DNA from: Minisyncoccota bacterium
GTDB lineage: Bacteria > Patescibacteriota > Minisyncoccia > Phycocordibacterales > GCA-2747955
DNA: 32,697 nucleotides
Direction: 5' to 3'
Assembly: GCA_020629435.1 (NCBI GenBank)
Contig: JAHDDI010000003.1
Location: forward strand, 24,075-56,771
The translations under genes and the position numbers were made by a program. The notes under the pieces were generated by a model that was given only the letters and a program-made list of their open reading frames with translations, was not told the origin of the DNA and ran no database searches. Below, piece after piece: positions 26,470-30,891 of the stretch; positions within the stretch are counted from its first letter, which is position 1, and each line of letters starts with the position of its first letter.

Positions 26470-27603
26470 ATGGCTACAAAAAAACAACAAACTCCAAAAC
26501 CAAAAAATAACGCTGAGCATACTGCGTTTCACTATGGTTTTGATTTAGTAGAAATTAAAGAAACAGCTGGTGCAAACACTAAAGGGCAACGTGCCGAAGA
26601 AGAAAAAGTAAAGGTGCTAAAATACTACAGCAGTGACAACGACCTGAAACGTGAAATACCCAAATCAATGATGTTTTACAATAAACCATTGATAAAAGAA
26701 AAAGATGGAAAAAAATCAGCCAATACTATTGGGCTTGATTTAATTGGGGTGGACAATGCTTTGGCCGAAGCATTAGTTATTCAGACTGCACTTTCTATTT
26801 TAAAAGACGAAGGATACAAAGATTTATCTATTGAAATTAATTCAATCGGAGACAAAGATTCTGTTAAGCGATTTGAAAAAGAACTAGTTGCGTATTACAA
26901 AACACGGACGGATGACTTGAAATCTATTGAAAAGAAAAAAATTAATGCTGATCATGTTATGGAGTTGTTTACTTCTGACAAAGATTATATGCAAGAAATA
27001 AATGCAGACGCACCAAAACCTATCTACTTCCTGTCTGATAGCAGCTCTGCTCACTTTAAAGAAGTATTAGAATTTTTAGAAGAAATCAATACTCCATACA
27101 ATATTTCAGATTCATTGATTGGTGATAAAAATTATTTCTCAAAAGTTATCTTTGTGATTAAGGGAAGAATCGGTAAAGAAAAAGAATCAAAAGTACTAGC
27201 CCGCGGTGGACGGTACGACGAATTAGCCGGAGAAGTAACACGTAAAAGAAAGATTGCTGCAGTTGGATTATCAATGGACTTTAAAGCAAAAACTAAAAAA
27301 CCAACCACTAAAGCAACAGATGTTAGCATTCATTTAATTAAGATTGGGTTTAATGCAAAACTAAAATCACTAGAAATTATGGAGGCAATGAAATCTGTTG
27401 GTGCTCCACTCAACCATAGCCTGGACGAGAAAAAGATATCTCACCAAATTGAACATGCCGTAGAAAACGACGCATCATACGCACTAATTGTGGGCCAAAG
27501 AGAAGCAAACAACGGAAAAGTTCTGGTTCGAAACATGGAAACCAGCGCACAAGATGAGATAAAAATAGAGGACCTGGCAAAATACATGAAAAAATTAATG
27601 TAA
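26470..27603 (+). CDS. Histidyl-tRNA synthetase-like protein with a degenerate catalytic core and an intact anticodon-binding domain
   Basis: Recognisable YGF, INSIG, HF..V..L, GGRYD.L, AVG.S and ALIVG..E..V.VRNM..Q; class II motif 2 and RGLDYY are not recognisable. Confidence 0.75.
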   Translation: MATKKQQTPKPKNNAEHTAFHYGFDLVEIKETAGANTKGQRAEEEKVKVLKYYSSDNDLKREIPKSMMFYNKPLIKEKDGKKSANTIGLDLIGVDNALAEALVIQTALSILKDEGYKDLSIEINSIGDKDSVKRFEKELVAYYKTRTDDLKSIEKKKINADHVMELFTSDKDYMQEINADAPKPIYFLSDSSSAHFKEVLEFLEEINTPYNISDSLIGDKNYFSKVIFVIKGRIGKEKESKVLARGGRYDELAGEVTRKRKIAAVGLSMDFKAKTKKPTTKATDVSIHLIKIGFNAKLKSLEIMEAMKSVGAPLNHSLDEKKISHQIEHAVENDASYALIVGQREANNGKVLVRNMETSAQDEIKIEDLAKYMKKLM

Positions 27604-27623
27604 GAATATTATTTACAACAACA

Positions 27624-27649
27624 AAAACCGCGCAATGCGGTTTTGTTTT
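27624..27649 (+). terminator. Intrinsic terminator after the HisRS-like gene
   Basis: aaaaccgc-gcaat-gcggttttgtttt. Confidence 0.7.
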
Positions 27650-27749
27650 GGCTATGTTTTTGGGCATCTCAATCCTACACAAGCAACTTATTATATTATT
27701 TGCTTCGGTTTTTTTATTATTAACTTTTTGGAATATATATCCATGTATC

Positions 27750-28037
27750 CTCACTCTGTTCTATACAAAATAGCTTTTTTCAGTATCTTTTTTTGTCCGT
27801 TATTCAAACACTACTAGCTTCGACCAAACTACCTGTTGGTCTGCAGATAGTGTTTGGAATAAAGGACGGAGGTGTTATTCAGTTCCGATTATGTAATTTA
27901 GCTTGAGGTTCAAGTACAATTTTAATACTGTATTAATTCCACCGTTACAACTTTTCTTGAACCCCTGCAGACGAGACGATTAGATGGTTTTTTCCTTCAG
28001 GCAGTCTCGTCGAAGCCAGTTCAAAAAAAGTTAGTAA
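27750..28037. repeat. Structured non-coding element, copy 1 (oppositely oriented modules at 27800-27862 and 27945-28037)
   Basis: Aligns in blocks with the reverse complement of 30118-30474, with compensatory stem changes. Confidence 0.8.
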
Positions 28038-28179
28038 TAAAAAAAATTCCAAAGCAGATACTAAAAATTTTAAACAATCAAAGTGATGATGCACAAGCGC
28101 AAATGTACATATCCAAAGACTATGTCTTTACAAAACCACGCAAGCTGCAAACAAGAACCTACTTAGTCGAAAATAGACT

Positions 28180-29328
28180 TTATGCAGAAAATTTTCGAAC
28201 AGCCGAGAACAGCTTTCGGGTTAGATTTCGTAGTAGACCCCTATTTTTTGATCGCTCTTGATCCATTGCTTGAATAGCGACCCCGTAAACACTTGCCCAC
28301 CCCAGTTCACGCTCATCTGCATCTTGCCTTTTGAATGCACGAATGAGTGCCTTTCTGGTAGGTATTTTTAACACATCACGCGCCAACATATCAATATCTT
28401 GTAACATTGACCCTGCACCGCACAAAACAGCTCCTCCTGGCAAATTACCACTCTTTTCGATTGATTTTAAGTCAGCGTTTACCTTCTTAAAAATATCGAT
28501 TGTTGCTTTTTTAATTGTTGCGTGAACTTTCTCCGAACTAATTGATGCGGCAATTGGCCCTCCTAATTTAATTATTTCTGCGTCAGACACAGATATTTGA
28601 TATTCCAATGCTATGGCCTGAGTAATTGAATCACTTCCTTGTTCCAAATATCCTACATGAATTGGAGCATCGTGCTCATAAACAACATATGATGTTGCGT
28701 CGCTTCCAATATCAATCAACACACATCCTACCTTTCTATCTATGGTAGACAGCGACACTATACTAGCGCCAATAATAGCTGGTAAAAAATCTTCGGTGTC
28801 TACTTCAATCTGGTCCAGTACGTCTTCTGCTGCATCGATATTCTGACTAGCATAATTAAATAGCATTGCTTCAACATCTAATTTCTTACCCTTCATTCCT
28901 ATTGGTTCTGATACTGTTTCTTGTCCGTCCAGCTTGTAGTGCAAAATAATTGAATCTATATTTCTCTGGTTTGTTGACAGAGTTTTTTTAACTGAACGCC
29001 TGATGGATTGTTCGATATCAAATTCTGTCACAATAGAGTCACCGTGACTGACCGCAACTGGAGAAGACACAATTTTTGTTGCCATGGGTCCACCACCTGC
29101 GGTTACATATATTTCTTTTATCTGCTGACCAATTTGTTTTTCTGTTAATCGGATTGCTTTTTTGACTGCTACGTACACATCCGATTTATTGGTAATGTAT
29201 CCATTACGCACCCCTGCAGATTGTGCACTAGATCGTGCTAATAAAACAATTTTTTCATCACGCAATTGGCCCGCGACAACGCGGATTGTATTACTCCCTA
29301 TATCAATTGCTGCAATAATTTGTGACAT
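28180..29328 (-). CDS. ftsA: Cell division protein FtsA
   Basis: IDIGSNTIR, S.GVRNG.I, LDG..PIGMKG.KL, G..LIDIG and G.VL.GAGS.L. Confidence 0.85.
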   Translation of the reverse strand: MSQIIAAIDIGSNTIRVVAGQLRDEKIVLLARSSAQSAGVRNGYITNKSDVYVAVKKAIRLTEKQIGQQIKEIYVTAGGGPMATKIVSSPVAVSHGDSIVTEFDIEQSIRRSVKKTLSTNQRNIDSIILHYKLDGQETVSEPIGMKGKKLDVEAMLFNYASQNIDAAEDVLDQIEVDTEDFLPAIIGASIVSLSTIDRKVGCVLIDIGSDATSYVVYEHDAPIHVGYLEQGSDSITQAIALEYQISVSDAEIIKLGGPIAASISSEKVHATIKKATIDIFKKVNADLKSIEKSGNLPGGAVLCGAGSMLQDIDMLARDVLKIPTRKALIRAFKRQDADERELGWASVYGVAIQAMDQERSKNRGLLRNLTRKLFSAVRKFSA

Positions 29329-29333
29329 AATAA

Positions 29334-29711
29334 TTAAATACCAAATTGTTTTCTAAATTTGGACTCCAGTCTATCCATTGTAGCACCGTGGTCGTGCCCC
29401 TTCAAATGCACTAATCCGTGGACAAACAAAAATCCTACAAAATTTTCAAAAGTACGGTCAAAATTTTTATATTGTTTTTTACACACCGGCAGACAAATAA
29501 ACATTTCTCCTGTTGTGCCTGACAGTGGAAACGACAATATATTAGTTGCATAATCCTTGCCTCTACTTTCTCTATTTATTTTTCGCATCAAATGTTCTCC
29601 ACAAAAAACCAAAGATAATTCATATTTGTTACCCAACACCGCAGCGGCCATCTCGTTGTAGTTATATTTTTTAGGGAACACTGAACGAGTTGTATTTGAG
29701 ATATCTATCAT
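29334..29711 (-). CDS. ybeY: rRNA maturation endoribonuclease YbeY
   Basis: N..R.KDY.TNILSFP, GE.FI and HGLVHLKGHDH. Confidence 0.9.
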   Translation of the reverse strand: MIDISNTTRSVFPKKYNYNEMAAAVLGNKYELSLVFCGEHLMRKINRESRGKDYATNILSFPLSGTTGEMFICLPVCKKQYKNFDRTFENFVGFLFVHGLVHLKGHDHGATMDRLESKFRKQFGI

Positions 29712-29738
29712 ATCTCTAGTATACGCTAGGAGTGAGAC

Positions 29739-29772
29739 ATAAACAAAAACCCCTTGAGGGGTTTTTGTTTAT
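29739..29772. terminator. Terminator of rpsU
   Basis: Perfect stem ataaacaaaaacccc-ttga-ggggtttttgtttat. Confidence 0.78.
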
Positions 29773-29779
29773 AGTTGTA

Positions 29780-30004
29780 CTATTTAATTTTTCCCATTTT
29801 TCGAAGCATGTCTCGCTCTTCTGTTTTTTGAATCTTACGTAGAGCAATATTTTTTCGTTTTAATGCAGATGGTTTTCGTTGTTCAAATTTCTGAGATTTC
29901 AGTTTGTTAACTACTCCTGCTCCTCGAACTTTTTGAGTAAACCGTTTTAAAGTACCCAAGGTATTTTCTTTTTCTTTTTTTGTGATGTGTGCGTTTAGTG
30001 CCAT
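29780..30004 (-). CDS. rpsU: 30S ribosomal protein S21 (divergent)
   Basis: 74 aa, very basic, with the S21 pattern E..LKRF..KV..AG..F..KPS..RK. Confidence 0.75.
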   Translation of the reverse strand: MALNAHITKKEKENTLGTLKRFTQKVRGAGVVNKLKSQKFEQRKPSALKRKNIALRKIQKTEERDMLRKMGKIK

Positions 30005-30117
30005 AGTGGCCAGTAGAATAACATATTTTTATTACTACGCAATAGCTCAACAATACGTTTTGTGCTGCCTAATACTGTTTATCGTAAACTATCCTACTTC
30101 TTGTCGCGGCATATTTT

Positions 30118-30474
30118 GTTACTAACTTATTTCAAACTTGCTTCGTAGCTACTACCTGTCAGTAAATTCTTGTCCATCGTAGCTACTGCAGGGTTTGAAA
30201 TAAGTTGTGACGGTAGAATTCCTGTACCATTAGATTTTAACTAATCTTGAAATCTAATTACCAGAACAGAAGTAAGCCCTCCCACCCCTTTATTCCAAAC
30301 ACTATCCGCAGACCAAACGAACTGAATAGTTATTTCAACCAGGTAGTTTGGTCGGGCTAGTCTCACGGTTTTACAAACCTAGACTATCATGTATACAAAG
30401 CTGGTAGTGTTTGAATAAAGGCAGAAAAATTGCCGGATTAAAAGTTAGGTATGTTTTAAGTAGAATGGAGTGAG
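30118..30474. repeat. Structured non-coding element, copy 2, inverted relative to copy 1 (modules at 30118-30211 and 30287-30421)
   Basis: Perfect 14-bp stem 30124-30137/30193-30206, inner stem gtagctac/gtagctac, outer stem 30287-30304/30405-30421, and motifs shared with copy 1. Confidence 0.8.
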
Positions 30475-30522
30475 AGTGAACTAGACACATAACCCAAAAC
30501 AATACACCCATAGATTATACTT

Positions 30523-30891
30523 TTATTCAAAAAATGTCGTTTTCATTTTTTGCCAAAATGTCTTTTCTTCTTCATTAATTACAATCTCTTCGTCTTCGTC
30601 ACGTACCAAAACCAACACACGCTCCCCTTCTCTTTTGATTGCATATTTTTCAATCAAAAAATCTTGCACCCCTGTGTCAGTTTCTAATAGTTCATTTCTT
30701 GCCTGAACCTTTTCTAGTCTGGTTTCAATATTTGCCTTGCGCAACTCTAGTTCATGTAACATTGCTTGGGCTTGTTTGTGTGACAAGTAATTTCCCCATG
30801 CCCATCGAGTCACCACAAATGTCACAAAAACAACTACTCCTAAAAATAGATACTGTCTTTTTGATTTGTTTTTATTATTACGAATCGACAT
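30523..30891 (-). CDS. FtsB/DivIC-like septum formation initiator protein
   Basis: Short basic N-terminus, one TM, coiled coil, then E.Y..K.EGE.V. Start set at the ATG at 30891. Confidence 0.65.
   Translation of the reverse strand: MSIRNNKNKSKRQYLFLGVVVFVTFVVTRWAWGNYLSHKQAQAMLHELELRKANIETRLEKVQARNELLETDTGVQDFLIEKYAIKREGERVLVLVRDEDEEIVINEEEKTFWQKMKTTFFE

What the first reader, a model, noticed from the sequence alone, without database searches (positions are those of the whole stretch)
27800..30421. Four copies of an unrecognised structured module: conserved scaffold around a ~20-nt variable loop
Seen in sequence: one motif occurs four times, at 27800-27862 (-), 27945-28037 (+), 30118-30211 (-) and 30287-30421 (+). 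It reads outer stem-CYGCA-8 bp inner stem-GA(N18-19)-CAGGYA-inner stem'-GAAGC-outer stem'. Stem sequences differ yet keep pairing: inner gacgagac/gtctcgtc, gtagctac/gtagctac, gaccaaac/gtttggtc; outer aacttttcttgaac/gttcaaaaaaagtt versus aacttatttcaaac/gtttgaaataagtt. Loop segments are otherwise unrelated but length-fixed: 20 nt (27978-27997), 20 nt (30159-30178), 21 nt (30319-30339); the fourth copy lacks the loop. The 30287-30421 copy has an extra hairpin inserted into GAAGC. CCTG/TCTG before the inner stem could pair with loop CAGG as a pseudoknot. Inference: conserved junctions, covarying stems and a constant-length variable segment fit a guide-like ncRNA family, a new ribozyme, or an ssDNA recognition hairpin. 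I do not recognise it as a known family. The functional strand is unresolved because G-U evidence is mixed.
Basis: partly seen in the sequence, partly recalled or inferred. Interest (0 to 1): 0.9.

Follow-up and report, generated by a model that had tools for sequence, protein, structure and literature searches.

The report
Species-specific hairpin repeat elements flanking an inversion
The four look-alike hairpins are real and belong to a small family of structured repeats found only in this tiny bacterium, where two inverted copies sit at the ends of a flipped block of three genes; whether they act as DNA or as RNA is still open.

Summary
All four modules are at the stated coordinates, fold far better than shuffles (z -5.5 to -6.1), and their 8-bp inner stem covaries at 7 of 8 pairs. 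Two points were missed. First, the assembly (698 kb, 86% complete) holds 11 copies. Each carries a conserved tail of about 55-70 nt. Eight copies form four divergent pairs of two subtypes (T2/T1, about 350-430 bp); three T1 copies stand alone. Second, the two pairs in the window are inverted relative to each other and bracket ftsA-like/ybeY/p74. That block is inverted relative to the order in two other genomes of the family.

The family matches nothing in Rfam. My model found it in 0 of 311 other genomes searched (11 family, 150 order, 150 phylum), and the core motif found nothing real in three large collections. The sister genome lacks the elements at the orthologous sites. Neither strand is favoured by G-U pairs, no promoters stand out, and the loops have no targets in the genome. 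No transposase, reverse transcriptase, extra recombinase or Nop protein was detected.

Best reading (about 0.5): a lineage-specific, non-autonomous palindromic repeat element, like a MITE or BIME, that served as substrate for the inversion. A structured small-RNA family (about 0.3) is not excluded. The guide model has only one phage match, compatible with chance.

The parts
27662..27729 (-). Remnant: 3' arm (14 nt) of a T1 outer stem plus a T1-type tail, with no hairpin core
   Evidence: Read. It aligns with the tails of the intact copies, and the C2 locus has the same remnant arrangement.
27745..27796 (-). Tail of copy A
   Evidence: Tail alignment; nhmmer hit at C6:51879-51801.
27797..27868 (-). 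Hairpin A: T2 subtype, loop-less decayed copy
   Evidence: R1 25.4 bits, E 0.0004-0.004; fold z -5.49. The related strain in X4 has a full D-like copy at this locus.
27869..27941 (.). Spacer of the A/B pair
   Evidence: Weakly homologous to the spacers of the other three pairs.
27942..28038 (+). Hairpin B: T1 subtype, inner stem GACGAGAC/GTCTCGTC
   Evidence: R1 94.9 bits; fold z -5.82. 27854-28136 is 98.6% identical in an X4 contig.
28039..28094 (+). Tail of copy B
28180..30004 (-). Gene block ftsA-like (28180-29328), ybeY (29334-29711), p74 (29780-30004), inverted relative to relatives
   Evidence: Pfam and NCBIfam. Order and orientation in G008 and G010 is hisS-p74-(ybeY)-ftsA, all co-oriented.
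30062..30117 (-). Tail of copy C; it points into the start of p74
30118..30213 (-). Hairpin C: T1 subtype, inner stem GTAGCTAC
   Evidence: R1 87.9 bits; fold z -6.13.
30214..30283 (.). Spacer of the C/D pair
30284..30424 (+). Hairpin D: T2 subtype, inner stem GACCAAAC/GTTTGGTC, extra hairpin inserted at 30355-30397
   Evidence: R1 49.4 bits; fold z -5.49.
30425..30481 (+). Tail of copy D

Best explanation
The four modules belong to a lineage-specific family of non-coding palindromic repeat elements. The family acts at the DNA level, in the manner of MITEs, ERIC/Correia elements or REP-BIME doublets.

The basic arm is a hairpin of about 95 nt plus a tail of about 55-70 nt. The hairpin has a sequence-conserved outer stem, a conserved asymmetric junction (CCCTGCAG on one strand, CGAAGCCA on the other), a free-sequence 8-bp inner stem and a 26-nt loop. 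The full element is two such arms of different subtype (T2 and T1) facing away from each other across a 60-85-nt spacer, so it looks like an element of 350-430 bp with very long inverted ends.

Shown:
- 11 hairpins and 13 tails lie scattered in intergenic DNA of this genome.
- Truncated and decayed copies exist.
- The sister genome lacks the elements at the orthologous sites, and none of the other genomes searched has them.
- Two copies in inverted orientation lie at the two breakpoints of an inversion that is derived in this lineage.

Inferred:
- The elements were inserted or spread in this lineage by an enzyme that is not in the assembly, or by host recombination and replication.
- The conserved junction and outer stem are a protein recognition site read on a folded single strand or a cruciform.
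- Arm-to-arm template switching or selection keeps the inner stem paired.
- Recombination between the inverted pairs, most likely within the near-identical T2 arms A and D, flipped the ftsA-ybeY-p74 block.
For: 1. Multi-copy dispersed family. R1 finds 11 copies on 5 contigs and nhmmer finds 12 tails. A 13th tail, the remnant at window 27662-27729, was seen only by eye and in the MAFFT alignment.
2. Features typical of repeats rather than genes. There is a loop-less copy (A), two remnants made of a tail plus part of an arm (window 27662-27729 and C2:44262-44338), and extra hairpins inserted in 2 copies. 2 of the 31 scaffold gaps (each 100 N) lie in or beside a copy, with duplicated ends.
3. Restricted distribution. 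R1 matches 0 of 11 other family genomes, 0 of 150 order genomes and 0 of 150 phylum genomes. The core pattern gives 56 stretches in genome contigs, 69 in metagenome contigs and 0 in viral contigs. R1 scores 0 of the 56, and only 2 of the 69, weakly (E 0.019 and 0.035) and with broken pairs.
4. Insertion-like sites. In the same-genus complete genome G008 the orthologous intergenic gaps are about 48 and 100 nt, against 577 and 519 nt here. All 7 loci lack the element there. 4 of them are otherwise collinear, and 3 coincide with synteny breaks.
5. Inversion. G008 and G010 (another genus of the family) have hisS-p74-(ybeY)-ftsA all co-oriented. Here the block is reversed, and the two pairs, themselves inverted relative to each other, fill the two breakpoint gaps. 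A and D share 30 nt at 97% and 15 nt at 100%. The X4 strain carries a D-like copy at the A locus.
6. No strand signal. G-U pairs number 21 against 31, and the opposite strand folds at least as well in 6 of 11 copies.
7. No consistent promoter before the hairpins: 11 promoter-like sites against 9.3 expected.
Against: 1. No mobilising enzyme was found. Pfam families for Y1 transposase, serine recombinase, rve, DDE_Tnp_1, TnpB, IS110 and reverse transcriptase give 0 hits in six-frame searches. The only tyrosine recombinase is Xer-like and has a 66%-identical orthologue in the element-free sister genome. 40 of the 220 ORFs without a match in the sister genome were scanned, and none is a mobility gene. 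The genome is only 86% complete.
2. I could not find target-site duplications at the ends (read by eye).
3. The paralogues are old: their tails are 48% identical. Yet junctions stay 89% identical and inner stems stay fully paired in the 9 aligned copies. That points to selection on each copy, which dead MITE copies would not show.
4. An X4 contig covering the spacer, B and its tail is 98.6% identical, while coding contigs of the same run differ by 5-12%. This could reflect constraint on the whole element, or simply a different strain in that run.
5. The conserved, non-complementary junction needs a single-stranded form, which an RNA would provide as well as DNA.
Confidence: 0.5

Rival explanations
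1. A family of structured small RNAs, about 150-170 nt (hairpin plus tail). A conserved scaffold is bound by an unknown protein and a copy-specific apical stem-loop sets specificity. This is the guide-like reading, and it includes a distant analogue of stem-loop tigRNAs or bridge RNAs. The T2 and T1 RNAs would be transcribed divergently from the spacer.
For: - Strong covariation in the inner stem (7 of 8 pairs).
- Conserved asymmetric junction, 89% identical among paralogues whose tails are 48% identical.
- Extra hairpins tolerated at junction positions in 2 copies.
- Loop length held at 25-27 nt.
- One compensatory change and one G-U in the proposed pseudoknot.
- B with its flanks is 98.6% identical in another strain, where coding DNA differs by 5-12%.
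- The B loop has a 21-nt exact match inside a ParB-like gene of a tailed-phage contig.
- Variable palindromic stems with small conserved motifs are the published hallmark of stem-loop TIGR guide RNAs in CPR bacteria (passages and sections 7 and 11 of bioRxiv 10.64898/2026.09.09.750476; passages of PMC12045711).
Against: - No strand preference in G-U pairs.
- No consistent promoter, and no terminator directly after the units.
- Absent from the sister species and from all 311 other genomes searched.
- Truncated remnants and a decayed copy.
- 0 of 10 loops match the own genome beyond shuffles.
- 5 of 6 loops have no exact viral match, and by my rough estimate the one hit is expected by chance at about 0.1-0.4 per loop.
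- No Nop, TnpB or IS110 protein detected.
- The TIGR rule (box C, 9 nt, box D, twice, in tandem arrays) is not met by any copy.
Confidence: 0.3
2. Folded single-strand DNA recombination sites for a tyrosine recombinase, like integron attC or the CTX-phage attP hairpin. The outer-stem end and the inner stem would be the two binding arms, and the unpaired junction the central spacer. The housekeeping Xer-like enzyme would act on them, and recombination between inverted sites would give the inversion.
For: - The architecture stem / unpaired conserved spacer / stem / variable loop is the same as in attC. The comparison is from my own knowledge of attC, not from a call.
- AAC and GTT are invariant in the outer stem.
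- The inverted sites bracket an inverted block.
- The only recombinase in the assembly is Xer-like, and it reaches the XerA model's cut-off (221.3 against 220 bits).
Against: - The same recombinase exists in the element-free sister genome.
- The integron-integrase model scores far below its cut-off (123.8 against 265 bits).
- The sites are not in same-orientation arrays with cassettes.
- The outer-stem ends match the recalled attC consensus RYYYAAC/GTTRRRY at only 5 of 7 positions each (by eye).
- The contigs of the source sample's three runs show no inversion variant.
Confidence: 0.1
3. A new self-cleaving ribozyme carried on a repeat.
For: About 20 conserved bases are concentrated at junctions, a pseudoknot is possible, and extra stems are tolerated.
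Against: No match to any ribozyme family in Rfam at E<=10. The two CTACAG copies and the CCGCAG and CTGTAG copies alter the conserved core. There is no strand signal. Nothing here tests cleavage.
Confidence: 0.03

Closest known systems
MITE-type palindromic repeats (Correia/NEMIS of Neisseria, ERIC/IRU of enterobacteria, Rickettsia palindromic elements); properties recalled, not taken from a call
   Same: Short, non-coding, fold into long hairpins, lie dispersed in intergenic DNA, are specific to a species or genus, occur as full and truncated forms, and are associated with rearrangements.
   Different: Only 11 copies. No target-site duplication seen and no matching transposase. The two arms of the full element are different subtypes, each itself a hairpin with a conserved asymmetric bubble. 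Paralogues are old yet keep their structure.
REP / BIME / REPIN doublets with RAYT transposase (recalled)
   Same: Palindromic units that occur as inverted doublets separated by a short spacer, in intergenic regions and often between convergent genes.
   Different: The units here are about 95 nt plus a tail, against 20-40 nt. Copy number is low. No Y1/RAYT gene was found.
Integron attC sites (recalled)
   Same: Structure conserved more than sequence; two stems separated by an unpaired spacer; variable terminal loop; strand-specific bulges.
   Different: No integron integrase, no cassette array, sites in opposite orientations, and here the junction sequence, not only the outermost bases, is conserved.
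Stem-loop TIGR guide RNAs (tigRNA) of TIGR-Tas systems (PMC12045711, passages read; bioRxiv 10.64898/2026.09.09.750476, abstract, passages and sections 7 and 11 read)
   Same: Found in CPR/Patescibacteria. Variable but always palindromic stems flank a loop with short conserved motifs. Extra hairpins are tolerated.
   Different: [quoted passage not shown] None of this is met here.

Membership tests
MITE | Short (<600 bp) non-coding element with terminal inverted repeats | tested here: met
   Units of 350-430 bp whose two arms are homologous and inverted. Each hairpin also has 14-19-bp complementary ends. No ORF is conserved among the copies.
MITE | Multiple dispersed copies, with presence/absence between relatives | tested here: met
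   11 copies on 5 contigs. None at the 7 orthologous loci of G008.
MITE | Target-site duplication flanking each copy | tested here: inconclusive
   No consistent direct repeat seen by eye at the GTGCAC ends. No empty site close enough in sequence to define the ends.
MITE | Related autonomous element or transposase with the same ends | tested here: not met
   0 hits for PF01797, PF00239, PF00665, PF01609, PF07282 and PF01548. 0 mobility genes among the 40 ORFs scanned, of 220 without a match in the sister genome. The genome is 86% complete.
REP/BIME (REPIN) | 20-40-nt palindromes in high copy number with a RAYT gene | tested here: not met
   Units of about 95 nt, 11 copies, no Y1_Tnp.
REP/BIME (REPIN) | Inverted doublets in intergenic DNA | tested here: met
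   4 divergent pairs with spacers of 60-85 nt.
Integron attC | Integron integrase nearby, and an array of same-orientation sites separated by cassettes | tested here: not met
   One Xer-like recombinase only, scoring 123.8 against a 265-bit cut-off on the integron-integrase model. Sites stand in opposite orientations 60-85 nt apart.
Integron attC | R''/R' core RYYYAAC...GTTRRRY at the base of the hairpin (consensus recalled) | tested here: inconclusive
   AAC and GTT are invariant, but TTCAAAC/GTTTGAA match 5 of 7 positions each and lie next to the bubble, not at the base.
TIGR-Tas stem-loop array | [quoted passage not shown] | tested here: not met
   I re-implemented the published rule. It gives 57 isolated chance units and no cluster, and none overlaps a hairpin.
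TIGR-Tas stem-loop array | Adjacent Tas protein with a Nop domain | tested here: not met
   PF01798 gives 0 candidates at E<=1 in the six-frame genome. The Pfam model may miss divergent Tas proteins.
Any Rfam family (release 15) | Match at the family's gathering score | tested here: not met
   Only a tRNA in the window. At E<=10 the matches over the hairpins and pair spacers are MIR403 (21.8 against 70 bits), Y_RNA (16.5 against 38) and mir-1502 (20 against 66).

The most novel reading that the evidence does not exclude
Each hairpin is a programmable module. An unrecognised protein would read the conserved outer stem and asymmetric junction, and the copy-specific inner stem and 26-nt loop would supply specificity, as RNA or as folded single-strand DNA. 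This would be a new guide-type or recombination-directing system in a CPR bacterium that has no recognisable transposase. The 21-nt perfect match of the B loop to a phage ParB-like gene would be its first target, and the inversion of ftsA-ybeY-p74 one of its products.
Probability: 0.12. Interest if true: 0.85.

Novelty: new variant of a known kind. Interest (0 to 1): 0.45.

Why it matters
CPR/Patescibacteria genomes are tiny and usually poor in repeats and mobile DNA. A structured repeat family that is confined to one species, kept in shape over long divergence, and located at the ends of a derived inversion of cell-division and ribosome-maturation genes shows how such genomes can still be rearranged. 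If the copies prove to be transcribed and protein-bound, the family would add a new scaffold-plus-variable-loop RNA to a phylum where TIGR guide RNAs were only recently found. If they act as DNA, they are a clean case of hairpin-forming repeats without a visible transposase. They are also a practical warning, because they break assemblies of these genomes.

Tried and rejected
Rfam. The gathering search of the whole window gave only a tRNA. Of the 8 matches at E<=10 over 27600-30600, all were far below threshold.

Homologues elsewhere. R1 found nothing in 11 family, 150 order and 150 phylum genomes. R1 is dominated by T1 sequence, and the larger searches used strict filters, so divergent relatives could be missed. 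The core pattern gave 56 stretches in genome contigs and 69 in metagenome contigs. These are chance-level, GC-rich hits. R1 rejected all but two weak ones (E 0.019 and 0.035), which have broken pairs. Viral contigs gave 0. blastn of the A-B unit against phages and plasmids gave nothing better than E 0.08.

Guide targets. My first script failed to exclude self-matches and its output was discarded. The redone search found no loop matching the own genome beyond shuffled loops. Of the 10 loops, 6 were searched as exact 20-mers in IMG/VR, and one hit (B loop, L177). The other loops do not match that contig. I estimate chance at roughly 0.1-0.4 hits per loop, from an assumed collection size of about 5e10 bases. 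That size is my guess, not a tool figure. I ran no composition-matched control, because that would have meant typing an altered sequence.

RNA expression. No RNA holder was listed among the sequencing runs, so expression could not be examined.

Read laying. The contigs of the three runs of the source sample (X1-X3) are collinear with the window. Contigs cannot show rare inversion variants. The X4 joint 30028|30523 has only 28 letters on one side and unknown letters between, so I do not read it as an empty site. The joint 27822|27933 is likewise left uninterpreted.

Other ideas tested and dropped:
- Small ORFs after the SD-like GAGG in the tails. The peptides are 3-26 aa and not conserved (by eye).
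- An outward promoter in the tail (GTAACA-17-TAAAAT). It is seen by eye in some copies, but the scan is not above chance.
- A dif-like site at the tail end. The by-eye resemblance to the recalled E. coli dif is weak.
- PstI/ApaLI-type palindromes. CTGCAG and GTGCAC are not avoided in the genome.
- TIGR arrays.
- Integron membership.

Papers. Two searches for CPR/Patescibacteria with MITE or palindromic-repeat terms returned 1 and 8 papers. None describes such a repeat family, judged from titles and abstract starts only. This is not proof that none is in print. Supplements were closed, so the TIGR motif tables in the figures and supplements of the two TIGR papers could not be checked.


Full report
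WHAT IS THERE. The window is contig C6:24075-56771 of a 698,250-bp, 26-contig assembly with 39% G+C, rated 86% complete. Folded alone, each is far more stable than 200 dinucleotide shuffles: z = -5.49, -5.82, -6.13 and -5.49, with none of the shuffles as good. The opposite strands fold about equally well: z = -6.14, -4.71, -6.51 and -2.97.

The module reads as follows: outer stem of 14-19 bp; junction CCCTGCA; 8-bp inner stem that always starts with G and mostly ends with C; 25-27-nt loop; inner stem'; junction GAAGCCA; outer stem'. A 2-bp GC/GC mini-helix can form inside the junction.

THE FAMILY IS LARGER. A regex, blastn and a covariance model built from 9 copies (R1: 84 positions, 24 pairs) find 11 copies in the genome. 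Besides the four in the window these are:
- C2:43739-43821(-) and C2:44108-44177(+)
- C14:8278-8360(-) and C14:8447-8530(+)
- C14:16064-16148(-)
- C18:15968-16051(+)
- C7:2340-2424(-)

The outer stem defines two subtypes:
- T1 (CCGTTACAACTTnTTTCAAAC ... GTTTGAAAnAAGTTAGTAAC): B, C and five others.
- T2 (..AAACAC(T/A)A ... T(A/G)GTGTTT..): A, D, C2 and C14.

Homology continues about 55-70 nt beyond the 3' side of every hairpin, as a tail of the form ACAAAA..CCGAAA..TAAAAT..(A/G)AGTGAGGGTGCAC. An nhmmer profile of the tail finds 12 tails. A thirteenth, the remnant at window 27662-27729, was seen by eye and in the MAFFT alignment. Two of these tails carry only a 12-14-nt piece of a T1 arm and no hairpin (window 27662-27729 and C2:44262-44338).

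Eight hairpins form four divergent pairs, T2(-) - 60-85 nt - T1(+). The spacers of these pairs are weakly homologous. T2 never stands alone; three T1 copies do. All 31 runs of N in the assembly are exactly 100 nt, so they are scaffold gaps. Two of them lie in or beside a copy, with the same sequence repeated on both sides, so the repeats broke the assembly.

STRUCTURE STATISTICS. On the 9-copy alignment, 91.9% of pair cells are standard pairs, against 73.3 +/- 1.9% when partners are shuffled (0 of 500 shuffles reach it). 13 of 24 pairs change on both sides. Sliding the 3' partners by 1-3 columns gives 27-43% pairing. The inner stem is paired in all 72 cells, with compensatory changes at 7 of 8 pairs. 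It takes seven different sequences across the family (five among the nine aligned copies).

It shows one compensatory A-U, one G-U and one break, it competes with the GC/GC helix, and it is neither supported nor excluded.

G-U pairs give no strand. The opposite strand is the more stable one in 6 of 11 copies.

Among the seven T1 paralogues, mean identity is:
- junctions: 89%
- outer stems: 73-83%
- inner stems: 48-51%
- loop: 50%
- tail: 48%

The inner stem and loop are therefore not specially hypervariable. They have drifted as far as the tail, with the one constraint that the stem stays paired. The loops are also not unrelated. They follow the pattern N7-AG-N10-CAGGTAG: 8 of 10 have AG in register, B has GG there, and in D the AG lies one base later.

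NOT A KNOWN RNA, AND NOT FOUND ELSEWHERE. At gathering thresholds Rfam 15 finds only tRNA-Ile in the window. At E<=10 over 27600-30600 the matches on the hairpins and pair spacers are microRNA and Y-RNA models, all far below their thresholds.

R1 finds no match in 11 other genomes of the family (including the complete same-genus genome G008), in 150 genomes sampled from the order, or in 150 from the phylum. The exact core motif occurs in 56 stretches of the species-representative genome collection and 69 stretches of the metagenome collection, about the number chance predicts. R1 rejects all of the first set. In the second it gives only two weak, GC-rich matches with several broken pairs. Viral contigs give none. 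Records of the window's own genome may be left out of those collections by design. blastn of the A-B unit against phage and plasmid records gives nothing better than E 0.08.

GENOMIC CONTEXT. The flanking genes are housekeeping genes: hisS, an ftsA/pilM-like actin-fold gene, ybeY, a 74-aa basic protein, a 129-aa protein and lepA.

I fetched the whole 622,806-bp genome of G008 and mapped ORFs around every copy. None of the 7 loci has the element in G008.

Four loci are otherwise collinear: the C2 pair and the C18, C14b and C7 solos. Each lies next to ORFs that have no counterpart in G008: DUF1761, MscL, a 316-aa ORF interrupted by a scaffold gap (its 266-aa part has no Pfam family) and a pentapeptide-repeat protein. 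The other three loci coincide with synteny breaks.

The clearest break is in the window. G008 has hisS(+) p74(+) ftsA(+) p129(-) lepA(-), with gaps of about 48 and 100 nt. The window has hisS(+) [A B] ftsA(-) ybeY(-) p74(-) [C D] p129(-) lepA(-), with gaps of 577 and 519 nt that the elements largely fill.

G010, from another genus of the family, has hisS-p74-ybeY-ftsA co-oriented, and G009 and G011 agree as far as their loci reach. The inversion is therefore derived in this lineage. G008 has separately lost ybeY, or at least has no tblastn hit for it.

The two pairs are inverted relative to each other: A with D, and B with C (inverted repeats I1-I3 and I14).

OTHER STRAINS. The sequencing-run index lists three runs of one sample that may be the source (X1-X3) and one run of another study (X4) holding a relative. 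No RNA run is listed.

Laid contigs of X1-X3 are collinear with the window. In X4, a 1,342-nt contig runs through hisS (87 differences in 1,199 nt) to 27794. It then continues with a sequence that matches D (30287-30421) on the opposite strand, with 9 differences and one insertion, followed by 8 letters that fit the A-B spacer. That strain therefore has a full-length D-like T2 hairpin where this genome has the loop-less A. A is thus a decayed copy that lost its loop and the extra hairpin.

Another X4 contig covers 27854-28136 (spacer, B, tail) with only 4 differences and 2 one-base deletions. One of those differences (C27956T) restores the single C-A mismatch of B's outer stem. Coding contigs of the same run differ by 5-12%. 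This may mean constraint on the whole unit, or simply a closer strain in that run. One contig cannot decide.

WHO COULD MOVE OR READ IT. Six-frame Pfam searches of the assembly find one tyrosine recombinase. They find no Y1 transposase, serine recombinase, rve, DDE_Tnp_1, TnpB zinc-ribbon, IS110 transposase, reverse transcriptase or Nop domain.

The recombinase is XerC/D/A-like (242, 240 and 221 bits), scores far below the integron-integrase cut-off, and has a 66%-identical orthologue in G008.

Of 643 ORFs of at least 120 aa, 220 have no tblastn hit in G008. I scanned 40 of these (290-690 aa) with Pfam. None belongs to a mobility or RNA-guided family, and 13 have no family at all. 14% of the marker set is missing from the assembly, so an enzyme could be hidden there.

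GUIDE MODEL. None of the ten loops matches the own genome better than shuffled loops do: the best non-self match is 14-16 of 18-20 nt, and the shuffle maxima are 15-18.

Six of the ten loops were searched as exact 20-mers in IMG/VR. Five gave nothing. The B loop has one exact hit, 21 nt with the next base, which covers the variable part exactly. It lies inside a ParB-like nuclease ORF of a 6.5-kb tailed-phage fragment that also encodes terminase and portal. No other loop matches that contig beyond shuffles.

With my rough guess of the collection's size, about 0.1-0.4 chance hits are expected per loop. One hit in six is therefore unremarkable. I record it as a lead only.

COMPARISON WITH TIGR. 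The closest published RNA with 'variable but always palindromic stems plus tiny conserved motifs' in CPR bacteria is the stem-loop tigRNA (PMC12045711, passages; bioRxiv 10.64898/2026.09.09.750476, abstract, passages, sections 7 and 11).

Its defining layout is two spacers of about 9 nt, each between box C and box D, lying as an internal loop between stems, in tandem arrays next to a tas gene. I coded the published detection rule. It yields 57 isolated chance units, no cluster, and none on a hairpin. Here the internal-loop strands are the conserved part, not the variable part. Membership is not met.

MECHANISM I COMMIT TO. I read the family as a DNA-level palindromic repeat element of the MITE/BIME kind. 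It entered or expanded in this lineage after the split from G008, and now persists as full two-arm units, single arms and remnants. Recombination between its inverted copies produced the inversion.

The shown steps are copy number, dispersion, remnants, absence at orthologous sites, absence elsewhere, and the coincidence of inverted copies with the breakpoints of a derived inversion.

The inferred steps are the mode of spread, the recombination event itself, and the reason the hairpin is preserved. For the last I suggest recognition of a folded single strand or cruciform through the asymmetric junction. The arms would be kept complementary either by selection or by intrastrand template switching, as is known for quasi-palindromes (recalled, not tested).

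The main weakness is that old paralogues keep their junction and pairing, and that no enzyme is in sight. These are exactly the facts that keep the RNA reading alive at about 0.3.

VERDICT. This is a real, statistically solid and previously undescribed structured repeat family. The genomic context, namely the repeat family, the paired arms with tails and the derived inversion, is the main new result. The functional molecule, DNA or RNA, remains undecided.

Noticed in passing
window 28180-30004, against L142 (G008) and L220 (G010): The ftsA-like/ybeY/p74 block is inverted relative to two other genomes of the family. The inversion is derived in this lineage, and its two breakpoints are the two element pairs.
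   Followed up: yes
window 29334-29711 (-): ybeY (TIGR00043, 80.6 bits) has no tblastn hit in the complete same-genus genome G008. G009-G011 do have it between p74 and ftsA, so G008 appears to have lost it.
   Followed up: partly
window 27979-27998; L177:261-280 (-): The variable part of the B loop matches 21 nt exactly inside a ParB-like nuclease ORF of an IMG/VR tailed-phage fragment (terminase, portal). By my rough estimate this is compatible with chance.
   Followed up: partly
G000 C2:43840-43939 and C14:8166-8265: Two 100-N scaffold gaps have the same 49-55 nt of element sequence on both sides. The contig ends overlap and could have been merged, so the repeats broke the assembly.
   Followed up: yes
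window 27624-27644 and 29739-29772: Two strong bidirectional terminator-like hairpins of similar sequence (AAAAACCGCG..CGGTTTTT and AAAAACCCCT..AGGGGTTTTT), one after hisS and one between p74 and ybeY. The second has a perfect 16-bp stem.
   Followed up: no
G000 C14:8100-8600 and C18:17418-19347: A segment of about 24 kb in G008 (377.4-401.1 kb) is joined end-to-start across the C14 element pair. On C18 its two outer flanks lie about 2 kb apart. This suggests a translocation or excision-reinsertion next to an element.
   Followed up: partly
G000 C14:10448-11533 (-): A 361-aa PIN_12-domain protein with no counterpart in G008 lies about 2 kb from the C14 element pair.
   Followed up: no
window 29780-30004 (-): The 74-aa basic protein upstream of which copy C sits has no Pfam or NCBIfam match at the thresholds used, although it is conserved (62% identity) in G008. 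By eye it resembles ribosomal protein S21 (recalled, not tested).
   Followed up: partly
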